This document shows, in pieces, positions 9,249 through 56,980 of a stretch of DNA of 60,747 bases. The translations under genes and the position numbers were made by a program. Numbering within the stretch: the stretch's first letter is position 1; every line of letters begins with the position of its first letter. Origin of the DNA: Enterobacteria phage JenK1; the sequence record NC_029021.1. The stretch is one strand, 5' to 3'. The notes below the pieces were generated by a model. It was not told the DNA's origin. It saw only the letters and a list, made by a program, of their open reading frames with translations, and did not search any database.

Positions 9249-10430
9249 ATGGCTGAAGGTTCACGTTATAGTAGCTATTACATCAAAGAACAGACCTCCG
9301 GTGTCACTCCGTCTAGCGGAACTCTGAAGGTCTTTCGTGCTACTAAATCGGGTCTTGATATTAAAGTCGCTACTCTGCAATCTGAAGAAATTCGAGATGA
9401 CGCGGAAGTGGCGGATTTCCGTCTTGGTGCTCGTCACGTAGAAGGTACAGCAACGGGTGAATTGTCTTATGAGACATTTGACGACCTGTTGGGTGGTGCA
9501 TTACGTGGTACGTTTGCGGGAGAAGCGTTGACCGCAAGTATCGAGCGCCAATCTTTTACCTTTATTGACTATAACGCAGATATTCCGGATTTCCCGTATA
9601 CCATCTATCGTGGTTGTGAAGTTAACAGTCTTGCAATTACTGTAAGTGCTGAAGCTATCACCAGCGTGGAATTCGGTATCGTTGGTCGTACAATGGAACA
9701 GGCTGCTACCCTGCCGTCTGGTCTAAGTAAAGGTACTCGTACGACTACGTCACCTATGGATGGCTTCTCTGGTAAGCTAACTATGGGCGATGTGTCTGTT
9801 GATGTTATCACTGAGATGGCTATTAACATTGAGAACGGCATCGAGCCTCGTTTCGTTGTTGGTTCCAAGTTCTCTATCAAGCCAAGCTCTAAACGTCGTC
9901 AGATCAGTGGTACACTGACCGCCTACTACGAAGATAACAAACTGCGTAGTAAATTCCTGAACGAACAGGAAAGCGACCTAACTATCGACATCCTGGACGG
10001 AACTACTGGTGCTGGTTATCGTTTCAGTATGCCTCGTATCAAGATTACGGAAGCTCCGCGTCCGATCGATGGTGAAGGCGATATCATGCTGAACATGAGT
10101 TATACTGGTCTGTTGGACCAAGACGAAGGTTACAGCATTCGTATTACTAAACTTCCTCCGATGTCTTTCACGACCGATCTTACAGGAAACAAGACTATCA
10201 CTAAAGGACAAACACTAACCCTTTCAGTTGTGGTCAAAGGTGGCGAAGAACCTTATACCTATGTATGGAAGAAAGGTGGTGTTGTTATTCCGGAAGCTAA
10301 ACAAGCGACATACACTAAATCTAACGCACAAGAGGCGGATGCCGGTCAGTATGTATGTGAAGTAACAGATTCACATGGTCGTACTATACCGAGCACACCT
10401 TGCCTTGTTGCTGTTAATCCTGGTGAGTGA
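9249..10430 (+). CDS. major tail protein with C-terminal Ig-like domain
   Basis: 393 aa; C-terminal roughly 90 aa has an Ig-like pattern (YTYVWKK...GQYVCEVTD); located just upstream of the chaperone and tape measure genes. Confidence 0.65.
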   Translation: MAEGSRYSSYYIKEQTSGVTPSSGTLKVFRATKSGLDIKVATLQSEEIRDDAEVADFRLGARHVEGTATGELSYETFDDLLGGALRGTFAGEALTASIERQSFTFIDYNADIPDFPYTIYRGCEVNSLAITVSAEAITSVEFGIVGRTMEQAATLPSGLSKGTRTTTSPMDGFSGKLTMGDVSVDVITEMAINIENGIEPRFVVGSKFSIKPSSKRRQISGTLTAYYEDNKLRSKFLNEQESDLTIDILDGTTGAGYRFSMPRIKITEAPRPIDGEGDIMLNMSYTGLLDQDEGYSIRITKLPPMSFTTDLTGNKTITKGQTLTLSVVVKGGEEPYTYVWKKGGVVIPEAKQATYTKSNAQEADAGQYVCEVTDSHGRTIPSTPCLVAVNPGE

Positions 10431-24099: not shown

Positions 24100-24813
24100 A
24101 TGTCTGACATGACTCTTATTCCGGGCGGTTTGGGTGGCGGTTTCGGTGGTGAAGCTGGCGCAGCGGCCGTTGGCGGTGGTATCGGTGGCTTAATCGGTTC
24201 GTGGATCGGAAATGGTTGGGGTGGCAATGTCGGTTGGGGTGGTCGCGGCGGTTGGGGTGGTGGTGTCGGTGAAGTCCAGGCTTCCGTAGATACTAACGCA
24301 ATTCTGCAAGCCATCAATAACGGCAACCTGCAAAACATCCAGGGCCAGAACGGTACTAACCTGACTGTCGAACGTTCTGCGGCGTCCACCTTCAACGGTA
24401 TTACTCAACAGAACACTCAGAACATGCTGGCTTCCGTTCAGGGCTTTGCTGGTCTGAACACTGAAATTCGCACTGGTACAGCGTCTGTCGTAGCTGCTGT
24501 CAATGCTGCGGATGTAAACGCGTTGAACCGTTCCTTCCAGGCTCAGTTAGCTGCTCAGGAATGTTGCTGCGAGACCAACCTGAACATCGAACGTCAAGCG
24601 AACGAAACCCGTGGCCTGATCCGCGATCAGTTTGCTCAGTCTCAGGCTGTTCTGATCTGTGATCTGAAATCTCAGTTGCAGGAAGCTCGCTTTGCGAACT
24701 CCCAGCTTCATCAGACCGCTCAGATCGATTGTAAGATCAATCAGGTTGCACAGCTCGTTAACTTCAAACTGCCAACCCCTCCGACTCCGCCGACTGGTTG
24801 TTGTGGTTGCTAA
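24100..24813 (+). CDS. Gly-rich N-terminal / Cys-containing hypothetical protein
   Basis: 237 aa; N-terminal 60 aa dominated by GG/GW repeats, Q/N-rich middle, CCC and C-terminal GCCGC; strong host-like codon bias; bracketed by terminators. Confidence 0.6.
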   Translation: MSDMTLIPGGLGGGFGGEAGAAAVGGGIGGLIGSWIGNGWGGNVGWGGRGGWGGGVGEVQASVDTNAILQAINNGNLQNIQGQNGTNLTVERSAASTFNGITQQNTQNMLASVQGFAGLNTEIRTGTASVVAAVNAADVNALNRSFQAQLAAQECCCETNLNIERQANETRGLIRDQFAQSQAVLICDLKSQLQEARFANSQLHQTAQIDCKINQVAQLVNFKLPTPPTPPTGCCGC

Positions 24814-39039: not shown

Positions 39040-39963
39040 TTACTGTGCAGCGTCATCGCCTTCAGTGGAACGTTTCCACGGTGGAGTCTTGGTCTGAGCT
39101 GCTTTAGCGATATCGTCCTGGACTTCAGGTTCTGCATGGTTAGCAGTACCAGTGTTCTGAGCCTGAGTTTGCGGTTGCTCTGCTCCAGGTTGTACCTGCT
39201 GAGTTGCCCAGTTAGGTTGCTGTGTGGTTTGTTGCTGCGGCTGCTGCGCACCAGTAGCCCACGGTTGAGATTGCGCCGCACTGTTAAAATCAACTGTTCC
39301 AGACTGCTGCTGTTGCTGTACCGGCTGCTGCGGCTGTTGTTGCTGCTGCGGTTGCTGGAACCCCTGAGTCTGAGGTTGTTGCTGCTGTTGCTGCGGCTGC
39401 TGCCCAAATGCGCCCGGGAAACCCTGCTGCTGCGGTTGCTGCTGTTGTTGCTGAGCACCACCGAACGCACCGCCACCAAATGCTGGAGATTGTGCTGCCG
39501 CTGCCGGAGTTGATTTAGGCAGGTTAGCCATATCCGCCTTAGTTGCGTATACAACACCTTCCATGTTATCAATTGCTTGATAAATCTGAGGTTCGTTGTT
39601 TGGCTCATAGCCAGGTTGTTGACGAACTTTCACTTTCAGGTTAAACGGAATACCGTGCAGTTGTTCAGTATCGTTCCAAACTGGAACTTTAACAGCACGG
39701 GACAGCTCTGCCAGTTCTTCCATTGCAATCTGTACAGCGACAGGGTTCGCGTTCTTGACGTTGTAACCGCCAAACATCACACGACCAGCAAAATCACCCT
39801 GCATAATCTTAAACTGAAGATTCAGACGCGCACCGCCTGGAGTTTTAGTCGGTTTGATTTCAGAGTTTACAATCTGAACAACATACCAACCAGCGGGCAT
39901 CAAGCTGTTGTGTTGACGCTCTGCGTGCTGTCCAGCGTTAAATTGCATTCCTAAACCGGCCAT
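39040..39963 (-). CDS. putative ssDNA-binding / annealing protein with Gln-rich linker
   Basis: Folded N-terminal 150 aa, then roughly 100 aa of poly-Q/P low complexity and acidic C-terminus; adjacent to Sak4-like ATPase. Confidence 0.45.
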   Translation of the reverse strand: MAGLGMQFNAGQHAERQHNSLMPAGWYVVQIVNSEIKPTKTPGGARLNLQFKIMQGDFAGRVMFGGYNVKNANPVAVQIAMEELAELSRAVKVPVWNDTEQLHGIPFNLKVKVRQQPGYEPNNEPQIYQAIDNMEGVVYATKADMANLPKSTPAAAAQSPAFGGGAFGGAQQQQQQPQQQGFPGAFGQQPQQQQQQPQTQGFQQPQQQQQPQQPVQQQQQSGTVDFNSAAQSQPWATGAQQPQQQTTQQPNWATQQVQPGAEQPQTQAQNTGTANHAEPEVQDDIAKAAQTKTPPWKRSTEGDDAAQ

Positions 39964-52651: not shown

Positions 52652-53039
52652 CCGTAATACATAAAACGGCGAAGCGAAGTGTATGAAAAATAATGGAAAA
52701 TTTTGAGGATTGGGAGGTTTGTAGTGATTTATATTATTTATAAAGGGGTCTCGTGGGGGTCGTCAGTAGACAACTCAAAAACAAAAAATCTTTATAAAAT
52801 TTATATAAATACACACATATACACATTTTTACCTTATTTTTCATGCACTTACCTCCTTTCATTTCGTATATTAAGCGACAATATACGAGCAATATAAGAA
52901 ATATTTGTTGCGCAACGACTGTGTGTTTTCTAACCAATCGAAAGATTGCTTTATATACGTCCGCGCGTCTAACACAAAAGAAAAGTAGATTGCAAGCGAT
53001 TTTTGCTGAGGTAACTCTCGAAGTGAAAGCGATTTGCGA

Positions 53040-53420
53040 GTTTGAAATTTTGTAGCCCGAAAACGATTCTATTTTATGGTATAAATGTCGGATTTTTCGG
53101 TGAAAGGTGGCTTTTCGGTGAGGTTGGGTGGCTGGAATCGGGGTAGCGGGTAGACCATAAAGCGAAAATAGCCGCGAAAACGGGGCACGCAGCGCGATTA
53201 ACTGGTTGGATCGGTGTAAGGGTGGCGGTGAGGGGCGAAAATGCCGCAAAATCGCGTACAGGGAAGCAGGGAGTGGATCACTGTAAGGGCGTGTAAGGCG
53301 ACTGAATTGGAGTCAATGGTAATGTACGGAAGAGGGATTCAGGTTCTTAGAGCGCGAATGGTGGAGTTATGGGTGAGGAATATGTGGTCAGCAGGGTAAC
53401 GCGGGAGGTTATGCAGGTAC
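53040..53420. repeat. purine-rich non-coding tract with tandem and dispersed short repeats
   Basis: ttttcggtga(a/g)(a/g)gtgg twice (53094-53131), gcgaaaat(a)gccgc(g)aaaa twice (53162-53183, 53234-53255), recurring GGTGAGG / GTAAGG motifs; no convincing ORF. Confidence 0.5.
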
Positions 53421-53457
53421 AAAAACGAAAGCGCCCCGTTGGACTTCAACAGGGCGC
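53421..53457 (-). terminator. intrinsic terminator ending leftward early operon
   Basis: Minus strand stem GCGCCC / GGGCGC with 15-nt loop, then TTTCGTTTTT. Confidence 0.5.
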
Positions 53458-53480
53458 GGATTATATAATGCAGTTAGAAG

Positions 53481-53729
53481 TTATTTACAAGTTAATAGTA
53501 CCGCCCAGGTATTATCTGGAAGCGTACCAACTCCAAGTATTTTAAGTTGAAGCGACTTGTTCTGCATGTTGTAATTGTCCAGTAACTCCTGGGCCGCGGC
53601 AGCGGCGTTCGCTTCACCGTTCAGGTTGTAGTCGTTTGCAGTTATTGCGCACATACCGAGGCCAACCGCTTTGAAGCGCATACCTTTGGATTGAGTCGGT
53701 GCTAGTGCTTTGACATGGATAGCGTTCAT
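53481..53729 (-). CDS. hypothetical small protein, paralog family B (copy 2)
   Basis: 82 aa; alignable with 54260-54505 product (shared AAA.EL...G.LPD pattern). Confidence 0.55.
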   Translation of the reverse strand: MNAIHVKALAPTQSKGMRFKAVGLGMCAITANDYNLNGEANAAAAAQELLDNYNMQNKSLQLKILGVGTLPDNTWAVLLTCK

Positions 53730-53758
53730 ATTATTTATCTCCGTTACAATTTGAAAGG

Positions 53759-54016
53759 TTAGCAGCTTTTTAACAGGTTAATGAAGCCCACCAGCGTGGA
53801 CGCGGTTGCAACCAGGCGGCCCATAGTATGCAGTTCCGCGTAAACTTTACCGTCGTTGAACACTGTTAAATAAACGTTAAGACCATTGCAACGGACGCGA
53901 TATTTGCGCGAGTTATTATTGAAAGTTTCTAATTCCGCAGTGATAGTCGCAAGATTAGCTATACGCTTGCCGATAATGCGGCGAGTGATAGTGGACTGGT
54001 TTAATACTGTAGACAT
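53759..54016 (-). CDS. hypothetical small protein, paralog family A (copy 2)
   Basis: 85 aa; N-terminus STITRRIIGKRI matches SMITKRIIGKRL of 55331-55636 product; AGGA RBS. Confidence 0.55.
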   Translation of the reverse strand: MSTVLNQSTITRRIIGKRIANLATITAELETFNNNSRKYRVRCNGLNVYLTVFNDGKVYAELHTMGRLVATASTLVGFINLLKSC

Positions 54017-54053
54017 AATCTTTTCCTCTGTTAACTATGCGAAGTGCATATTA

Positions 54054-54076
54054 TTGCCCACTGTTACTATGGGCAA
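54054..54076 (-). promoter_or_regulatory. palindromic element overlapping candidate promoter (copy 1)
   Basis: ttgcccactgttactatgggcaa; on minus strand reads TTGCCC - 17 bp - TAATAT upstream of 53759-54016 gene. Confidence 0.4.
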
Positions 54077-54084
54077 TGTATATG

Positions 54085-54249
54085 TCACTCAGCGGACACA
54101 TATTCTAACGCTTCTGATAGTGTAGCGAAGTGACCATCACTCACCAGATTAATAGCGTACTCAAGTTGATCCCGGGTCAGGTTGCGAAACTTGTTACGGA
54201 TGTGATAGCAACGACCGCGATAAATAACCTGGAAATAATTGCGTTCCAT
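54085..54249 (-). CDS. hypothetical small protein
   Basis: 54 aa from internal ATG 54249 with GGGGA RBS (longer track ORF overlaps upstream gene). Confidence 0.35.
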   Translation of the reverse strand: MERNYFQVIYRGRCYHIRNKFRNLTRDQLEYAINLVSDGHFATLSEALEYVSAE

Positions 54250-54259
54250 AATTATCCCC

Positions 54260-54505
54260 TTATGCAACGATGAACGCGTAACCGCTTTGATCCGGGAGCT
54301 CACCACCAGCAACAATCTCAAACTCAACACCCGCTTTATCGTTGAACTTTTTGATAAGCTCTTCCGCTGCGGCGCGGTGGTTGCCGTAAACACCCAAATC
54401 GTCACGCCATGTGATAGTCAAGGAGCCGTTCCAGCCTGTTGCTTTTACGCGCGGGTCACGGGTGGCAGTCGGGTTGATGAATTTCGTGATGATAGCTTGA
54501 GCCAT
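54260..54505 (-). CDS. hypothetical small protein, paralog family B (copy 1)
   Basis: 81 aa; paralog of 53481-53729 product. Confidence 0.55.
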   Translation of the reverse strand: MAQAIITKFINPTATRDPRVKATGWNGSLTITWRDDLGVYGNHRAAAEELIKKFNDKAGVEFEIVAGGELPDQSGYAFIVA

Positions 54506-54510
54506 GATAA

Positions 54511-54729
54511 TTACTCCGGTAAAATTACAGTGACGTTAATATTTGCAATGCGAGCGCACTCGCGGAAACCTTTTACATAAGCATCCATTTCGTCATAGGA
54601 TGCGAATGTCACGTCCGGGACTGGTCCGTTGTTAATATTCACGCAATATTCGTGTTCGTCCAGGTCAACCCAGCAGTATAGAACTATAGTTTCCATATTA
54701 TTTACCCTCCGTATAGTAAAGACCCGCAA
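54511..54729 (-). CDS. hypothetical small protein
   Basis: 72-aa ORF (possibly starting at internal METIVLYC). Confidence 0.45.
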   Translation of the reverse strand: MRVFTIRRVNNMETIVLYCWVDLDEHEYCVNINNGPVPDVTFASYDEMDAYVKGFRECARIANINVTVILPE

Positions 54730-54774
54730 CTATTGGAGCTCCGAACACCAAGAAAGCTAATAAGTAGAACATAA

Positions 54775-55269
54775 TTAGTTACCCCCTTTATTATTGAGCC
54801 CGTTGAATTTACGCCATGCGTAGAATTCAATCGTTGCATTATTAATATTCCAACCATTAGCTTTCGCAAGGTCACGGACGTTACCAATAGTTGGCACACT
54901 ATCAGGTAACATATTATCCAGGGCATTCCAAACGTCTGCGCATTTACCTTTAATTGGGCGGCGGACCCCGTTGCGCGTTTCGCTGCGCGTTTTGCTCTTG
55001 GCGGGAGCGACCGGAGCTTGTTGTGTGGTCACTTCCACGACAGTCGCTTTATCAGCTTCAACCAGATCGTTAGCTGCCTTGTTAACCGCGCTTTCGCTGT
55101 ACCAGTAGCGGCCACCGTCTTCTTGCGGTTCCTGGTGAATAAAGCTATTAGCTGTCGCAGTGTCCACATCCAGAACCTTTTTTAAGGCACGGCGAGCGTT
55201 AGACATATTGGTGAAGAAGCGAGCATCTTTTGCTACGCGAGTGATAGTAACCATTGTGAATATCTCCAT
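54775..55269 (-). CDS. hypothetical protein
   Basis: 164 aa; N-terminal TITRVAKDA loosely resembles paralog family A; preceded by second copy of the palindromic element. Confidence 0.5.
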   Translation of the reverse strand: MEIFTMVTITRVAKDARFFTNMSNARRALKKVLDVDTATANSFIHQEPQEDGGRYWYSESAVNKAANDLVEADKATVVEVTTQQAPVAPAKSKTRSETRNGVRRPIKGKCADVWNALDNMLPDSVPTIGNVRDLAKANGWNINNATIEFYAWRKFNGLNNKGGN

Positions 55270-55296
55270 GTTGTTCTAGCGGATTGCTAGTGGGAG

Positions 55297-55317
55297 CCCA
55301 CTGTAACAATGGGCAAC
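55297..55317 (-). promoter_or_regulatory. palindromic element (copy 2)
   Basis: gcccactgtaacaatgggcaa; 19 of 21 nt identical to copy at 54056-54076. Confidence 0.4.
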
Positions 55318-55330
55318 CATTAGCACGCTA

Positions 55331-55636
55331 TTATTGTTGAATAGCTTTATCTATCATTGCGATGAAGCAGAACACAGACCAAAGGCTATTCGCTTGGCAT
55401 ACTGCGCGGCCGTACATTACAGCGTGAGAGCTAACAGTACCGTCCTCGTTAATGCGAATATATAACGGGGTGCTGGAATACTTTTCGTTGCCCGGGAGCA
55501 TTACTAAATACTCGTCGAAACCCCAATCCCCGTCGACTTTTTCCGCAGTAAGGCCCAGCTGATACAGGCGCTTGCCGATAATACGTTTGGTGATCATGGA
55601 CTGGGACATAGAACGCGGTAAGTAGATAATGGACAT
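55331..55636 (-). CDS. hypothetical small protein, paralog family A (copy 1)
   Basis: 101 aa; AAGGGAG RBS; paralog of 53759-54016 product. Confidence 0.55.
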   Translation of the reverse strand: MSIIYLPRSMSQSMITKRIIGKRLYQLGLTAEKVDGDWGFDEYLVMLPGNEKYSSTPLYIRINEDGTVSSHAVMYGRAVCQANSLWSVFCFIAMIDKAIQQ

Positions 55637-55821
55637 AATGCAATCTCCCTTCGGGTGAAGCGGGCGCGGAACCCGTGTCCCGCTTTAAAACCCCCTTTAC
55701 CCCACGCGTTTATAGTATGACAACAGGGTATCAGATGCAACTATTATCTGCATTATTTTAGAACTTTTTTAGTTGTGTTTCATAATAATAACATCCGGGA
55801 CTATACGGTAGATGGTGTGCC

Positions 55822-55890
55822 GGAAATACCAGGTAGCGCGAGTGTGCTGAAAATACCAGGTAACAGCACGCGCAGGAAATACCAGGTAGC
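55822..55890. repeat. three iteron-like direct repeats in divergent intergenic region
   Basis: ggaaataccaggtagc (55822-55837), gaaaataccaggtaac (55849-55864), ggaaataccaggtagc (55875-55890); spacing 27 and 26 bp; each contains CCAGG. Confidence 0.55.
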
Positions 55891-56241
55891 ACATACATAG
55901 ACAGCACATAGTGGGCAGGTGGATAGTAACAGATGTAATTATACTGGACGGTATAGTATAGTCATGTAATAGATAGCACACTAATCAAATAAAAAATAAT
56001 AACGCGTGTAACAATAAACAACGTTATAGTAGAGCGCATGACAGTCACATCACGTAACAATCACCTCACTGACGATCACGGGACGTTATAGTAACGCCGC
56101 GGGGCGGCTCTTAGATCTCTGCCAAGGATTCATCGTTTGTAGATTGTCTCGTCACTAGACACTTTATATCCTCACCTCACCTGCCCTATATTGTTCGTAT
56201 AAAGTTAATTCCGTATGTAAATACTCGAGAGGAGATCTGTT

Positions 56242-56529
56242 ATGTTCGTTCTGGCTTTCAGTAGTGCAATATGGCTAGGTATCAACTGGATCCTTGCAAT
56301 TATATTGGGTCTTGTGATTTGGTATGTGCCGTTTATGCGTTACGCTGTTATCATTTCGCTTGTATATTTAGTTGTTAAACATTTCTTCGTATGGTGTGTA
56401 TGCAACCCACAAGCTGCAAACATCAAACGTAACAAAGCGAACTTCTTTAGTGTACTTATTTTAGGTTCACTGATTGTGTACGCATGGTTGCTCGGTGCGC
56501 AGAACTTAGGTTGGTTCACGTTACCTTAA
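56242..56529 (+). CDS. small membrane protein
   Basis: 95 aa with two or three hydrophobic helices. Confidence 0.5.
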   Translation: MFVLAFSSAIWLGINWILAIILGLVIWYVPFMRYAVIISLVYLVVKHFFVWCVCNPQAANIKRNKANFFSVLILGSLIVYAWLLGAQNLGWFTLP

Positions 56530-56614
56530 TGTGGTCACTAATTGTTGCGGCCGGCTATGTTAATCAACTTGCGTATCCTGTTATAGTTATTCCGTTAACG
56601 TTAAAGGGGTTTAT

Positions 56615-56980
56615 ATGAACGAGAATATAGTTAAAGCCTGGTCTATCTTACGACCACAGTTGAAAGACGATCGTGTCGCTTTTGTTTTATGTCCTGCTAA
56701 CGAATATCGCCGGAAGCTCGAAGAAGTGTTGCGCGAAGATCCTGAGTTCGTTCGCTGTGTGCAACTGTCGCGGGAGTCATCTGTGGTACAGTTTGATCGT
56801 TTCCATCTTCGTTTGGTTGCTCATCGCAGAGACTCGTATGAAGACACTGTAATTCGTACGAGTGGCTTCCATTGTGATATTGCGATTCTTGACTGTGAAT
56901 TAAGTATTGGGCAGAAACAAGAGTTATATAATCTCGCTCGTGAACGTCATGGTGAATTGTTGATTGTGGAAGTGCAATAA
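56615..56980 (+). CDS. hypothetical protein
   Basis: 121-aa ORF. Confidence 0.5.
   Translation: MNENIVKAWSILRPQLKDDRVAFVLCPANEYRRKLEEVLREDPEFVRCVQLSRESSVVQFDRFHLRLVAHRRDSYEDTVIRTSGFHCDIAILDCELSIGQKQELYNLARERHGELLIVEVQ

What the first reader, a model, noticed from the sequence alone, without database searches (positions are those of the whole stretch)
55822..55890. Three iteron-like 16-bp direct repeats at roughly 26-27 bp spacing
The repeats GGAAATACCAGGTAGC lie in the 600-bp divergent region between the leftward early operon and the rightward operon. Regular 2.5-turn spacing is characteristic of initiator or regulator binding arrays, so this is a candidate replication origin or transcription-factor array. 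Each repeat contains CCAGG; nearby are two ACGTTATAGTA repeats (56021-56031, 56083-56093).
Basis: seen in the sequence. Interest (0 to 1): 0.55.

Follow-up and report, generated by a model that had tools for sequence, protein, structure and literature searches.

The report
Triple repeat beside phage packaging end
Three conserved copies of a short palindrome-containing DNA motif sit in the control region of a 9g-like coliphage, about 250 bp from the end where DNA packaging starts; they are most likely optional protein-binding sites that tune early gene expression, not the replication origin.

Summary
GGAAATACCAGGTAGC occurs at 55822, 55849 (2 mismatches) and 55875, spaced 27 and 26 bp, and nowhere else.

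The window is a complete Nonagvirus (9g/JenP-like) genome.

- **Conservation:** about 18 Nonagvirus genomes keep three copies. The ATACCAGGT core varies in 1 of 27 columns, the spacers in 8 of 28.
- **Anomaly:** each core carries the palindrome ACCWGGT, which is otherwise purged from the genome (0 observed, 6-16 expected).
- **Against origin or packaging site:** JenP1 has near-identical terminase, polymerase and primase-helicase but swaps the block for a gene cassette with only one core-like site. One metagenomic variant has two copies. The sister lineage has an unrelated mini-array in the same slot.
- **Negative checks:** no RNA structure, Rfam hit, DnaA/IHF site or co-occurring gene.

Best reading (about 0.45): an accessory array of protein-binding sites in the early leftward control region. 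Main rival (about 0.25): a functionless tandem triplication. Origin iterons rate about 0.1. Interest is modest.

The parts
55822..55837 (.). Repeat copy 1, GGAAATACCAGGTAGC (palindromic core TACCAGGTA at 55827-55835)
55849..55864 (.). Repeat copy 2, GAAAATACCAGGTAAC (2 mismatches outside the core)
55875..55890 (.). Repeat copy 3, GGAAATACCAGGTAGC
55815..55895 (.). Whole array: about three tandem units of 27/26 bp. It forms the variable 'slot', bounded by anchors that are conserved in the sister lineage.
   Evidence: (D1), (alignment A2; two-copy variant L048)
55741..55800 (.). AT-rich flank on the left of the array (73% AT, 99th percentile of 60-bp windows in the genome)
55728..55749 (.). Conserved non-coding island GTATCAGATGCAACTATTATCT, shared with the Ec1-ASingh/Klebsiella-phage lineage. 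It contains the -35-like TTGCAT of the proximal leftward promoter candidate.
55712..55740 (-). Proximal leftward promoter candidate: TTGCAT, 17-nt spacer, TACTAT (-10 is the reverse complement of 55712-55717). The same TACTAT -10 sits next to the first leftward gene in the sister lineage. The array would lie roughly 105-185 bp upstream of it.
   Evidence: plus reading; inference, no transcript data
55938..55965 (-). Distal leftward promoter candidate: ATGACT, 16-nt spacer, TATAAT (10 of 12, the best sigma-70 match in the region). The array would lie about 40-110 nt downstream of its start site.
   Evidence: consensus match only
55331..55636 (-). First gene of the leftward operon inside the terminal repeat (101 aa, phrog_13865, function unknown)
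56074..56110 (.). Context, not part of the array: published pac element of 9g. Two repeats with core SRYCRCGGGRCG (56074-56085, 56095-56106) and the terminase cut after 56110. This is the most conserved non-coding stretch.
   Evidence: PMC5567051; PMC4276943
52737..56110 (.). Context: terminal repeat, duplicated exactly at both ends of the HdSG1 (3363 bp) and HdK1 (3367 bp) records
56163..56192 (+). Context: the only rightward promoter candidate conserved in both lineages (TTTATA, 18-nt spacer, TATATT). It lies outside the terminal repeat, about 50 bp upstream of the first rightward gene.

Best explanation
The three repeats are an accessory, lineage-specific array of binding sites for a sequence-specific DNA-binding protein, probably a dimer. 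Each site is centred on the palindrome TACCAGGTA.

The array lies in the early control region of the terminal repeat, between two candidate leftward promoters and upstream of the small 'pre-early' leftward operon. Occupancy of the sites would modulate leftward early transcription. It would act as a roadblock to transcripts from the distal promoter, as upstream sites for the proximal one, or both.

- **Shown:** position, conservation, the dyad core, dispensability for packaging and replication, and retention of an otherwise purged palindrome.
- **Inferred:** protein binding, the identity of the binder (phage early protein or host factor), and the effect on transcription.
For: 1. The repeats are non-random and unique in the genome.
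2. Fifteen distinct Nonagvirus intergenic regions keep three copies at 27/26 bp. The ATACCAGGT core varies in 1 of 27 columns, against 8 of 28 in the spacers and 22% across the whole region (Fisher p = 0.016 and 0.025). Three further metagenomic genomes show the same.
3. Within the genome, 14 of 16 motif positions are identical in all three copies, while the flanks of the 27-bp unit have diverged. This pattern looks like a conserved motif and not like a decaying duplication.
4. Each site has a perfect 9-bp dyad.
5. ACCWGGT is the most under-represented NNNWNNN palindrome in the genome: 0 outside the array against 6-16 expected, despite 166 seven-mers one substitution away. It is confined to this slot in the window, 9g, SE1 and JenP1.
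6. The avoidance is general, because the array-less Klebsiella relative also has none. Other rare exceptions do not cluster in the terminal repeat. The array therefore keeps three copies of a counter-selected word.
7. The core has no GA step on either strand, so it would stay free of the GA-linked 7-deazaguanine modification. GA accounts for 26.5% of G, against the published 25-27% dG+.
8. The array lies between promoter candidates.
9. Kulikov et al. inferred regulated, closely spaced promoters in this region.
Against: - No binder was identified. Pfam, PHROGs and NCBIfam give no DNA-binding assignment for neighbouring proteins. Structure models were poor or unmatched.
- No accessory gene co-occurs with the array.
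- Promoter positions are consensus matches only, and there is no transcript mapping in the literature searched.
- JenP1 manages with one core-like site inside an unrelated cassette, and one variant has two copies. Any function is therefore dispensable.
- The sister lineage has unrelated sequence in the slot.
- The conservation statistics are modest, and the genomes are closely related (90-97% identical).
Confidence: 0.45

Rival explanations
1. A functionless, or nearly neutral, tandem triplication of a 27-bp unit in a hypervariable spacer of the terminal repeat, kept only by shared ancestry.
For: - The whole 26-27 bp unit is repeated, so the regular spacing follows trivially.
- Copy number can change by exactly one unit (L048).
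- L028 has a mutated core.
- The same slot holds an unrelated triple ~10-bp tandem in the sister lineage and a gene cassette in JenP1.
- No partner protein, RNA structure or known-family match was found.
- All carriers are 90-97% identical, so conservation has limited power.
Against: - The core is significantly less variable than the spacers and the rest of the region.
- Divergence between copies is concentrated outside a 12-bp block that is identical in all three copies.
- Three copies of a palindrome that is otherwise purged genome-wide persist in about 18 genomes.
- No general tolerance of such sites in the terminal repeat was seen.
Confidence: 0.25
2. Iterons of a phage replication origin. 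An initiator binds the three sites and melts the adjacent AT-rich DNA.
For: - Direct repeats with internal dyads, flanked on both sides by AT-rich DNA in the top 1-1.5% of the genome.
- The position is in the only large non-coding region, at the switch of gene orientation and near the cumulative GC-skew minimum.
- It resembles the lambda origin layout (own knowledge).
Against: - JenP1 has DNA polymerase 99.8% and primase-helicase 97.5% identical but no array, only one core-like site inside an ORF.
- The sister lineage, with the same gene order around the region and annotated primase, polymerase and helicase genes in K9PH25C2, has no such repeats.
- No DnaA or IHF consensus sites.
- The 26-27 bp spacing puts neighbouring sites on opposite faces of the helix.
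- No Rep/O-like initiator gene is recognisable nearby.
- GC skew here follows gene orientation, so it is not independent evidence.
Confidence: 0.1
3. A DNA-end function. The array could be auxiliary terminase small-subunit binding sites (lambda cosB-like) on the side packaged first, or a T5-like DNA-transfer stop or pause signal at the inner edge of the first-entering terminal repeat.
For: - The array lies 220-288 bp from the mapped pac cut, on the side packaged first.
- Three 16-bp sites beside a terminase cut recall lambda cosB R1-R3 (own knowledge).
- The terminal repeat carries a leftward operon of small unknown genes, like the T5 pre-early region (own knowledge).
Against: - The pac element is already mapped and has its own, different repeats. 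It is the most conserved part of the region and is conserved in the sister lineage.
- JenP1 has 98.9% TerS, 99.6% TerL and the same pac sequence, but no array.
- A two-copy variant exists.
Confidence: 0.07
4. An RNA-level element, such as a leader structure, small RNA or protein-binding RNA repeats, in the 5' leader of the leftward transcript.
For: If the distal promoter (55965 to 55938) is used, the array is transcribed at about +40 to +110 of a roughly 295-nt leader.
Against: - Folding energy is no better than shuffles (z = +0.10 for the leader, -1.23 for the plus strand).
- No Rfam match even at E up to 1.
- The palindromic core cannot form a hairpin, because 4-bp arms would have a 1-nt loop.
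Confidence: 0.04

Closest known systems
Lambda OR/OL-type operator arrays: three ~17-bp dyad-symmetric sites between divergent promoters (own knowledge)
   Same: Three similar sites with internal dyad symmetry, spaced in the 20s of bp, in the single divergent control region. Kulikov et al. already noted that the layout 'evokes' temperate phages.
   Different: The dyad is only 9 bp. The sites do not demonstrably overlap promoter hexamers. No repressor or Cro-like gene is recognisable. The phage is virulent or pseudolysogenic, with no integrase reported. The array is missing in a congener.
Lambda cosB (R3, R2, R1 gpNu1-binding sites next to cosN) and the SPP1/P1 pac-site repeat boxes (own knowledge)
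   Same: Three 16-bp repeats within a few hundred bp of the terminase cut, on the side packaged first. Each site carries a methylatable host motif (Dcm CCWGG), reminiscent of the Dam sites in P1 pac.
   Different: The experimentally mapped pac repeats are a different sequence immediately at the cut. The array is dispensable in JenP1 despite identical terminase.
Iteron origins (lambda ori, P4 ori/crr, plasmid iterons) (own knowledge)
   Same: Direct repeats next to AT-rich DNA in a non-coding region.
   Different: Spacing is 26-27 bp, not about 22 bp. There are no DnaA or IHF sites and no adjacent initiator gene. The array is not conserved together with the replication proteins.
Repeat arrays near terminal repeats of T7 (SRL/SRR) and the T5 injection-stop region (own knowledge)
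   Same: Short repeat arrays adjoining or inside direct terminal repeats that also carry the first-expressed genes.
   Different: The function of those arrays is itself poorly defined. No sequence similarity was found. Two-step DNA transfer has not been reported for Nonagvirus in the papers read.

Membership tests
Iteron-type replication origin | At least three direct repeats phased with the helix (about 11 or 22 bp) | tested here: not met
   Three repeats, but spaced 27/26 bp (about 2.5 turns)
Iteron-type replication origin | Adjacent AT-rich unwinding element | tested here: met
   55741-55800 is 73% AT (99th percentile) and 55975-56034 is 72% AT
Iteron-type replication origin | Host-factor sites (DnaA boxes, IHF) | tested here: not met
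   No TTATCCACA with up to 1 mismatch and no IHF consensus in 55600-56260
Iteron-type replication origin | Conserved together with the replication or initiator proteins | tested here: not met
   JenP1 has polymerase 99.8% and primase-helicase 97.5% identical but no array. The sister lineage lacks it.
Iteron-type replication origin | Replication initiates there | not testable with these tools
   Needs marker-frequency sequencing or 2D gels
Terminase recognition array (cosB/pac-type) | Lies beside the terminase cut on the side packaged first | tested here: met
   220-288 bp from the cut at 56110, with packaging leftward
Terminase recognition array (cosB/pac-type) | Conserved wherever the same terminase is used | tested here: not met
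   JenP1 has TerS 98.9%, TerL 99.6% and the same pac sequence, but no array
Terminase recognition array (cosB/pac-type) | Bound by the small terminase subunit | not testable with these tools
   Needs EMSA or footprinting
Transcription-factor operator array | Repeated sites with dyad symmetry | tested here: met
   TACCAGGTA is a perfect 9-bp palindrome in all three copies
Transcription-factor operator array | Purifying selection on sites relative to spacers | tested here: met
   1 of 27 core columns vary against 8 of 28 spacer columns, p about 0.02. A counter-selected palindrome is retained.
Transcription-factor operator array | Overlaps or adjoins a functional promoter | tested here: inconclusive
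   The array lies between two consensus-level leftward promoter candidates. No transcript mapping is available.
Transcription-factor operator array | Cognate DNA-binding regulator identified | tested here: inconclusive
   No family assignment. The 117-aa protein annotated 'late transcriptional activator' in relatives has a C-terminal three-helix model, but no significant structural match. No co-occurring gene was found.
Structured RNA / known RNA family | Significant fold or covariance-model match | tested here: not met
   Rfam gave nothing at E up to 1. Fold z-scores were +0.10 and -1.23.
Coding repeat | Period divisible by 3 inside a credible ORF | tested here: not met
   The period is 27/26 bp. 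Only 41-70 aa ORFs overlap it, they are annotated inconsistently, and they have no homologue in JenP1.

The most novel reading that the evidence does not exclude
The array is a deliberately retained set of three modification-free palindromic sites (ACCWGGT, purged from the rest of the genome) in the terminal redundancy. In this reading it is the target of a site-specific protein acting on the DNA ends. One possibility is a T5-like stop or pause signal for stepwise DNA entry just after the pre-early operon. Another is a staggered cut at the same site in both terminal-repeat copies, which would leave complementary CCWGG overhangs and let the phage's own ligase circularise the genome with exactly one repeat copy.
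Probability: 0.05. Interest if true: 0.75.

Novelty: new member of a known kind. Interest (0 to 1): 0.35.

Why it matters
Nonagviruses are the model for archaeosine-modified (dG+) phage DNA. Their early transcription programme, their origin of replication and the role of the ~3.4 kb terminal repeat are all undescribed.

If the array is a real binding site, it offers a handle on how early expression from the terminal repeat is controlled. It would also show how a DNA-binding protein finds its site in a genome where about a quarter of G is hypermodified, because the core is one of the few palindromes that stays unmodified.

If it is only a tandem duplication, the practical value of this analysis is negative. 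The array should not be annotated as an origin or as the pac site, because the latter is already mapped 220 bp away.

Tried and rejected
- **Dcm/EcoRII avoidance as the reason for three CCAGG sites:** CCWGG as such is not depleted, 118 observed against about 80-105 expected.
- **'Palindromes are tolerated inside the terminal repeat because cuts there are survivable':** the 17 other rare occurrences of strongly avoided palindromes all lie outside the repeat.
- **'ACCWGGT is avoided because it is a dedicated cis-site':** an array-less relative avoids it too.
- **Phylogenetic profiling for a partner gene:** the window genes missing from JenP1 (85-aa 53759-54016, 105-aa 43261-43578, 95-aa 56242-56529, two tail-region ORFs) do not track the array.
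- **RNA element:** no Rfam hit, no significant fold, no tRNA.
- **Coding:** rejected.
- **Host or plasmid origin:** no match in 5,426 E. coli genomes or in PLSDB plasmids.
- **Pattern scan of viral contigs:** the extra hits in giant-virus and other contigs are coding repeats with periods of 24 or 27 bp, unrelated to this array.
- **Metagenome scan with the pac-proximal anchor:** most hits were unrelated (no similarity to the window where tested); five were Nonagvirus-like, one of them (L055) low quality.
- **Structure-based identification of binders:** the 164-aa protein model was unusable (pLDDT 44). The 117-aa protein model (pLDDT 67) has no significant PDB match; Mu Mor and other helix-turn-helix hits appear only at E about 1.
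- **Sequence search of the PDB:** uninformative.
- **Conserved promoters:** only one rightward candidate and one leftward -10 are shared between the lineages.

Full report
**1. The observation**

The window contains GGAAATACCAGGTAGC at 55822-55837 and 55875-55890, and GAAAATACCAGGTAAC at 55849-55864. With up to three mismatches there are no other matches on either strand, and none of 100 dinucleotide-preserving shuffles gives three. Similarity extends leftward, giving 21-23 bp of a 27/26-bp tandem unit (D1). The '2.5-turn spacing' is therefore just the period of a tandem repeat. Only three loci in the genome have any 10-mer present three times within 100 bp. The other two (24214, 39339) lie in gene-dense regions with periods divisible by three, and I did not examine them. 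Each copy contains the perfect 9-bp palindrome TACCAGGTA. The ACGTTATAGTA copies at 56021 and 56083 are also real (D3).

**2.

The region is 92-97% identical to Nonagvirus phages such as 9g, JenP1/P2, SE1, HdSG1, HdK1 and the BASEL phages. Genes run rightward from 1 to about 26 kb, leftward from about 26 to 55.6 kb, and rightward again from 56.2 kb. This makes 55637-56241 the single divergent non-coding region.

- Two GenBank records (HdSG1, HdK1) carry exact terminal duplications of 3363 and 3367 bp. These map to window 52737-56110.
- The right boundary coincides to the base with the physical end of 9g DNA. That end was found from read starts (Kulikov 2014, PMC4276943) and by run-off sequencing of virion DNA (Tsai 2017, PMC5567051).
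- Terminase cuts after window 56110 and packages leftward. Two 21-bp repeats with core SRYCRCGGGRCG (window 56074-56106) immediately precede the cut.
- Tsai et al. interpret the ~3 kb redundancy as headful, whereas the HdSG1/HdK1 records imply exact repeats. I could not resolve this difference.

Either way, the triple repeat lies inside the terminal redundancy. It is 220-288 bp from the pac cut, on the side packaged first, and upstream of a leftward operon of seven small genes of unknown function.

**3. Conservation**

Eleven of twelve database relatives have three copies at 27/26 bp with ATACCAGGT unchanged, and so do three IMG/VR contigs. One of those (L028) has a C-to-G change in the core of copy 1.

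I then retrieved contigs with the pac-proximal anchor, so that retrieval did not depend on the repeat. This gave four clean metagenomic Nonagvirus contigs. Three have three copies, and one (L048) has an exact 27-bp unit deletion leaving two copies.

Across 15 distinct intergenic sequences:

| Columns | Variable | Total |
|---|---|---|
| ATACCAGGT cores | 1 | 27 |
| Spacers | 8 | 28 |
| Whole intergenic region | 134 | 605 |

Fisher tests give p = 0.016 (core against the rest of the region) and p = 0.025 (core against spacers). Within one genome, 14 of 16 motif positions are identical in all three copies, while the rest of the unit has diverged. This is modest but consistent evidence for constraint on the core. 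The genomes are closely related, so it is not strong evidence.

**4. Dispensability**

JenP1 replaces window ~55717-55920 with a ~700-bp block. The block holds an extra leftward 102-aa ORF with no PHROG match, plus structured non-coding DNA, and it has no array. JenP1's proteins are nevertheless nearly identical to the window's:

| Protein | Identity to window |
|---|---|
| Small terminase (TerS) | 98.9% |
| Large terminase (TerL) | 99.6% |
| DNA polymerase | 99.8% |
| Primase-helicase | 97.5% |

JenP1 also has the same pac sequence. The array therefore cannot be the obligatory recognition site of the packaging or core replication machinery.

A mid-distance sister lineage (Ec1-ASingh and Klebsiella phages K9PH25C2 and Kpn2-P2) has 45-65% protein identity and the same gene order. 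It shares several non-coding islands with the window: 55728-55749, 56007-56020, ATCACCTCACYGAYGATCA at 56060-56078, and TAACGCCGC next to the cut. It does not share the array. At the aligned slot it carries three tandem ~10-bp units (GCCTTACAGC) of unrelated sequence. More distant relatives (Seurat, ECP2304, Vid5, PSTCR4, a Nipunavirus) showed no comparable array in a scan of 5-7.5 kb around the homologue of the 164-aa protein. The slot is thus a variable position that tends to hold short tandem arrays or cassettes.

**5. An anomaly: the core is a purged palindrome**

- ACCWGGT occurs only at the three repeats. Outside them it is absent, against 5.9-16 expected (Markov orders 1-4) or 6.1 from ACCWGG x CCWGGT / CCWGG. 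It is the most depleted of the 64 NNNWNNN palindromes.
- The same confinement holds in 9g (50 kb examined) and SE1 (50 kb examined). Whole-genome JenP1 has a single ACCTGGTAAC, inside its replacement block. By chance a 700-bp block would contain a site with probability of about 0.07-0.17, so the JenP1 site may be coincidence.
- In the window, 166 seven-mers are one substitution away from the word.
- The avoidance is not caused by the array. K9PH25C2 has no array and also has zero ACCWGGT, GGTWACC and GCTWAGC, and the words of its own mini-array are not avoided.
- Genome-wide, 6-bp palindromes containing a GA step are at expectation (169 observed, 171 expected). GA-less ones are depleted (504 observed, 746 expected). 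Many are absent: ATGCAT 0 against 20, TACGTA 0 against 16, GGTACC 0 against 16, AGCGCT 0 against 14.
- GA makes up 26.5% of G, matching the published 25-27% dG+ in 9g. The 9g motif is formally unknown; GA/GGC is established only for CAjan.
- The simplest inference is that sites which cannot be shielded by the modification are removed by restriction pressure. CCWGG flanks fit this: 109 of 115 sites have GA or GGC on at least one strand.
- I tested whether the terminal repeat simply tolerates such sites. The 17 other rare exceptions are all outside it.

The array therefore keeps three copies of a counter-selected, modification-free palindrome. That favours a sequence-specific function for the core.

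**6. Tests of the alternatives**

- **RNA:** no Rfam match at E up to 1. Fold energies are indistinguishable from shuffles. No tRNA.
- **Coding:** the period is not a multiple of three, and only short, inconsistently annotated ORFs overlap the array.
- **Origin:** the flanks are AT-rich, at the 98.5th to 99th percentile. However, there are no DnaA or IHF consensus sites, the spacing is out of phase with the helix, no initiator gene is recognisable, and the array is absent where the replication proteins are conserved.
- **Host or plasmid homology:** none.
- **Partner gene:** genes missing from JenP1 do not co-occur with the array.
- **DNA-binding candidates:** all proteins encoded in the terminal repeat are of unknown function. 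The 164-aa protein has homologues across related genera, often near record ends, and one is annotated 'transcriptional activator', but its model was unusable. The 117-aa rightward protein is annotated 'late transcriptional activator' in the Klebsiella relatives. Its model ends in three helices but has no significant structural match.
- **Promoters:** the best sigma-70 match is leftward, ATGACT-16-TATAAT at 55965 to 55938. It would place the array at about +40 to +110. A second leftward candidate, TTGCAT-17-TACTAT with its -10 at 55712-55717, shares its -10 with the sister lineage's promoter next to the first gene. It would place the array about 105-185 bp upstream. The only rightward candidate conserved in both lineages lies outside the terminal repeat, at 56163-56192. 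All of these are consensus matches, and I found no transcript mapping for this genus.

**7. Conclusion**

The array is real and moderately constrained. It is specific to most Nonagviruses, dispensable, and distinct from the mapped pac element. My estimates for the competing readings are:

| Reading | Confidence |
|---|---|
| Accessory protein-binding array modulating early leftward transcription from the terminal repeat | 0.45 |
| Functionless tandem triplication in a variable slot | 0.25 |
| Origin iterons | 0.10 |
| Packaging or DNA-entry role | 0.07 |
| RNA element | 0.04 |

It is most like operator arrays in its anatomy. It is not a demonstrated member of any family, because neither the binder nor any promoter overlap has been shown. 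None of the papers I read on 9g and its relatives mentions it. I rate it a new member of a known kind, of modest interest.

Noticed in passing
window 52737-56110: This stretch equals the exact direct terminal repeat of HdSG1 (3363 bp) and HdK1 (3367 bp). Its right edge is the experimentally mapped pac cut of 9g. The published descriptions disagree: headful with ~3 kb redundancy, against exact repeats in the two records.
   Followed up: yes
whole window: Selective palindrome avoidance. Six-bp palindromes with a GA step are at expectation (169 observed, 171 expected), while GA-less ones are depleted (504 observed, 746 expected). Many are absent, including ATGCAT, TACGTA, GGTACC, AGCGCT, AGTACT, GTGCAC and GCATGC. 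GA is 26.5% of G, matching the published dG+ content. This suggests GA is the modified context in Nonagvirus and that unprotectable restriction sites have been purged.
   Followed up: partly
window, CCWGG sites genome-wide: CCWGG is not depleted overall, but its flanks are strongly biased to 5'-T and 3'-A. Of 115 sites outside the array, 109 have GA or GGC on at least one strand.
   Followed up: partly
window 52677-52850: The left boundary of the terminal repeat (52737) sits at the centre of an AT-rich dyad, with 29-nt inverted arms at 52677-52705 and 52822-52850. The most AT-rich 60-bp window of the genome (85% AT, starting at 52772) is here. The surrounding ~750 bp (52737-53480) has no credible ORF, tRNA or Rfam hit. 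It is a candidate for the other end-defining site or for an origin.
   Followed up: partly
L002 1915-2630 (JenP1 record 55160-55875): The JenP1 cassette that replaces the array holds a 102-aa leftward ORF with no PHROG match and GC-rich hairpins. It also has a perfect 10-bp-stem hairpin (TGTTGGATGC/GCATCCAACA) followed by a T-run, at the position where the window has the conserved island 55728-55749.
   Followed up: partly
window 53481-55636: The leftward operon in the terminal repeat contains two paralogue pairs: 55331-55636 with 53759-54016 (phrog_13865), and 54260-54505 with 53481-53729 (phrog_3199). All are of unknown function.
   Followed up: partly
window 54775-55269 (-): The C-terminal domain of this 164-aa protein is conserved in Seuratvirus, Nipunavirus, Vid5, iggy-like, Vibrio, Alteromonas and other ~58-63 kb siphophages. 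It is often encoded near record ends or twice per record, so it appears to be a conserved terminal-repeat early protein.
   Followed up: partly
window 56111-56614; L012 943 onward (HdK1): The segment just right of the pac cut is a second variable slot. The 95-aa membrane protein gene (56242-56529) has no counterpart in JenP1, the aligned sequence is divergent in BRET, PD328 and ESCO3, and in HdK1 an HNH endonuclease gene is annotated there.
   Followed up: partly
L029 5304-5431 and L029 3036-3147 (Ec1-ASingh): The sister lineage has a 15-bp-period repeat array (TCTAATGGTTAGC-like) in the region equivalent to the ORF-free left part of the terminal repeat. It also has a G-rich repeat block (GGGTGTAGGYACGC) inserted near the first leftward gene.
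   Followed up: no
window 56615-56980 (+): This 121-aa protein, noted as 'potential sigma factor' in the 9g record, gives only a weak NCBIfam hit to an RNA polymerase sigma factor (E = 0.003, 17 bits against a cut-off of 307).
   Followed up: no
window 9264-9273: A third exact copy of CGTTATAGTA lies at the start of the tail-subunit gene (9249-10430). TATAGTA occurs 9 times on the plus strand against once on the minus strand, and 4 of the 9 are in the intergenic region.
   Followed up: no
window 24214-24260 and 39339-39445: These are the only other loci with a 10-mer present at least three times within 100 bp (periods 18 and 39/57). They lie in gene-dense regions and look like coding repeats, but I did not check the reading frames.
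   Followed up: no
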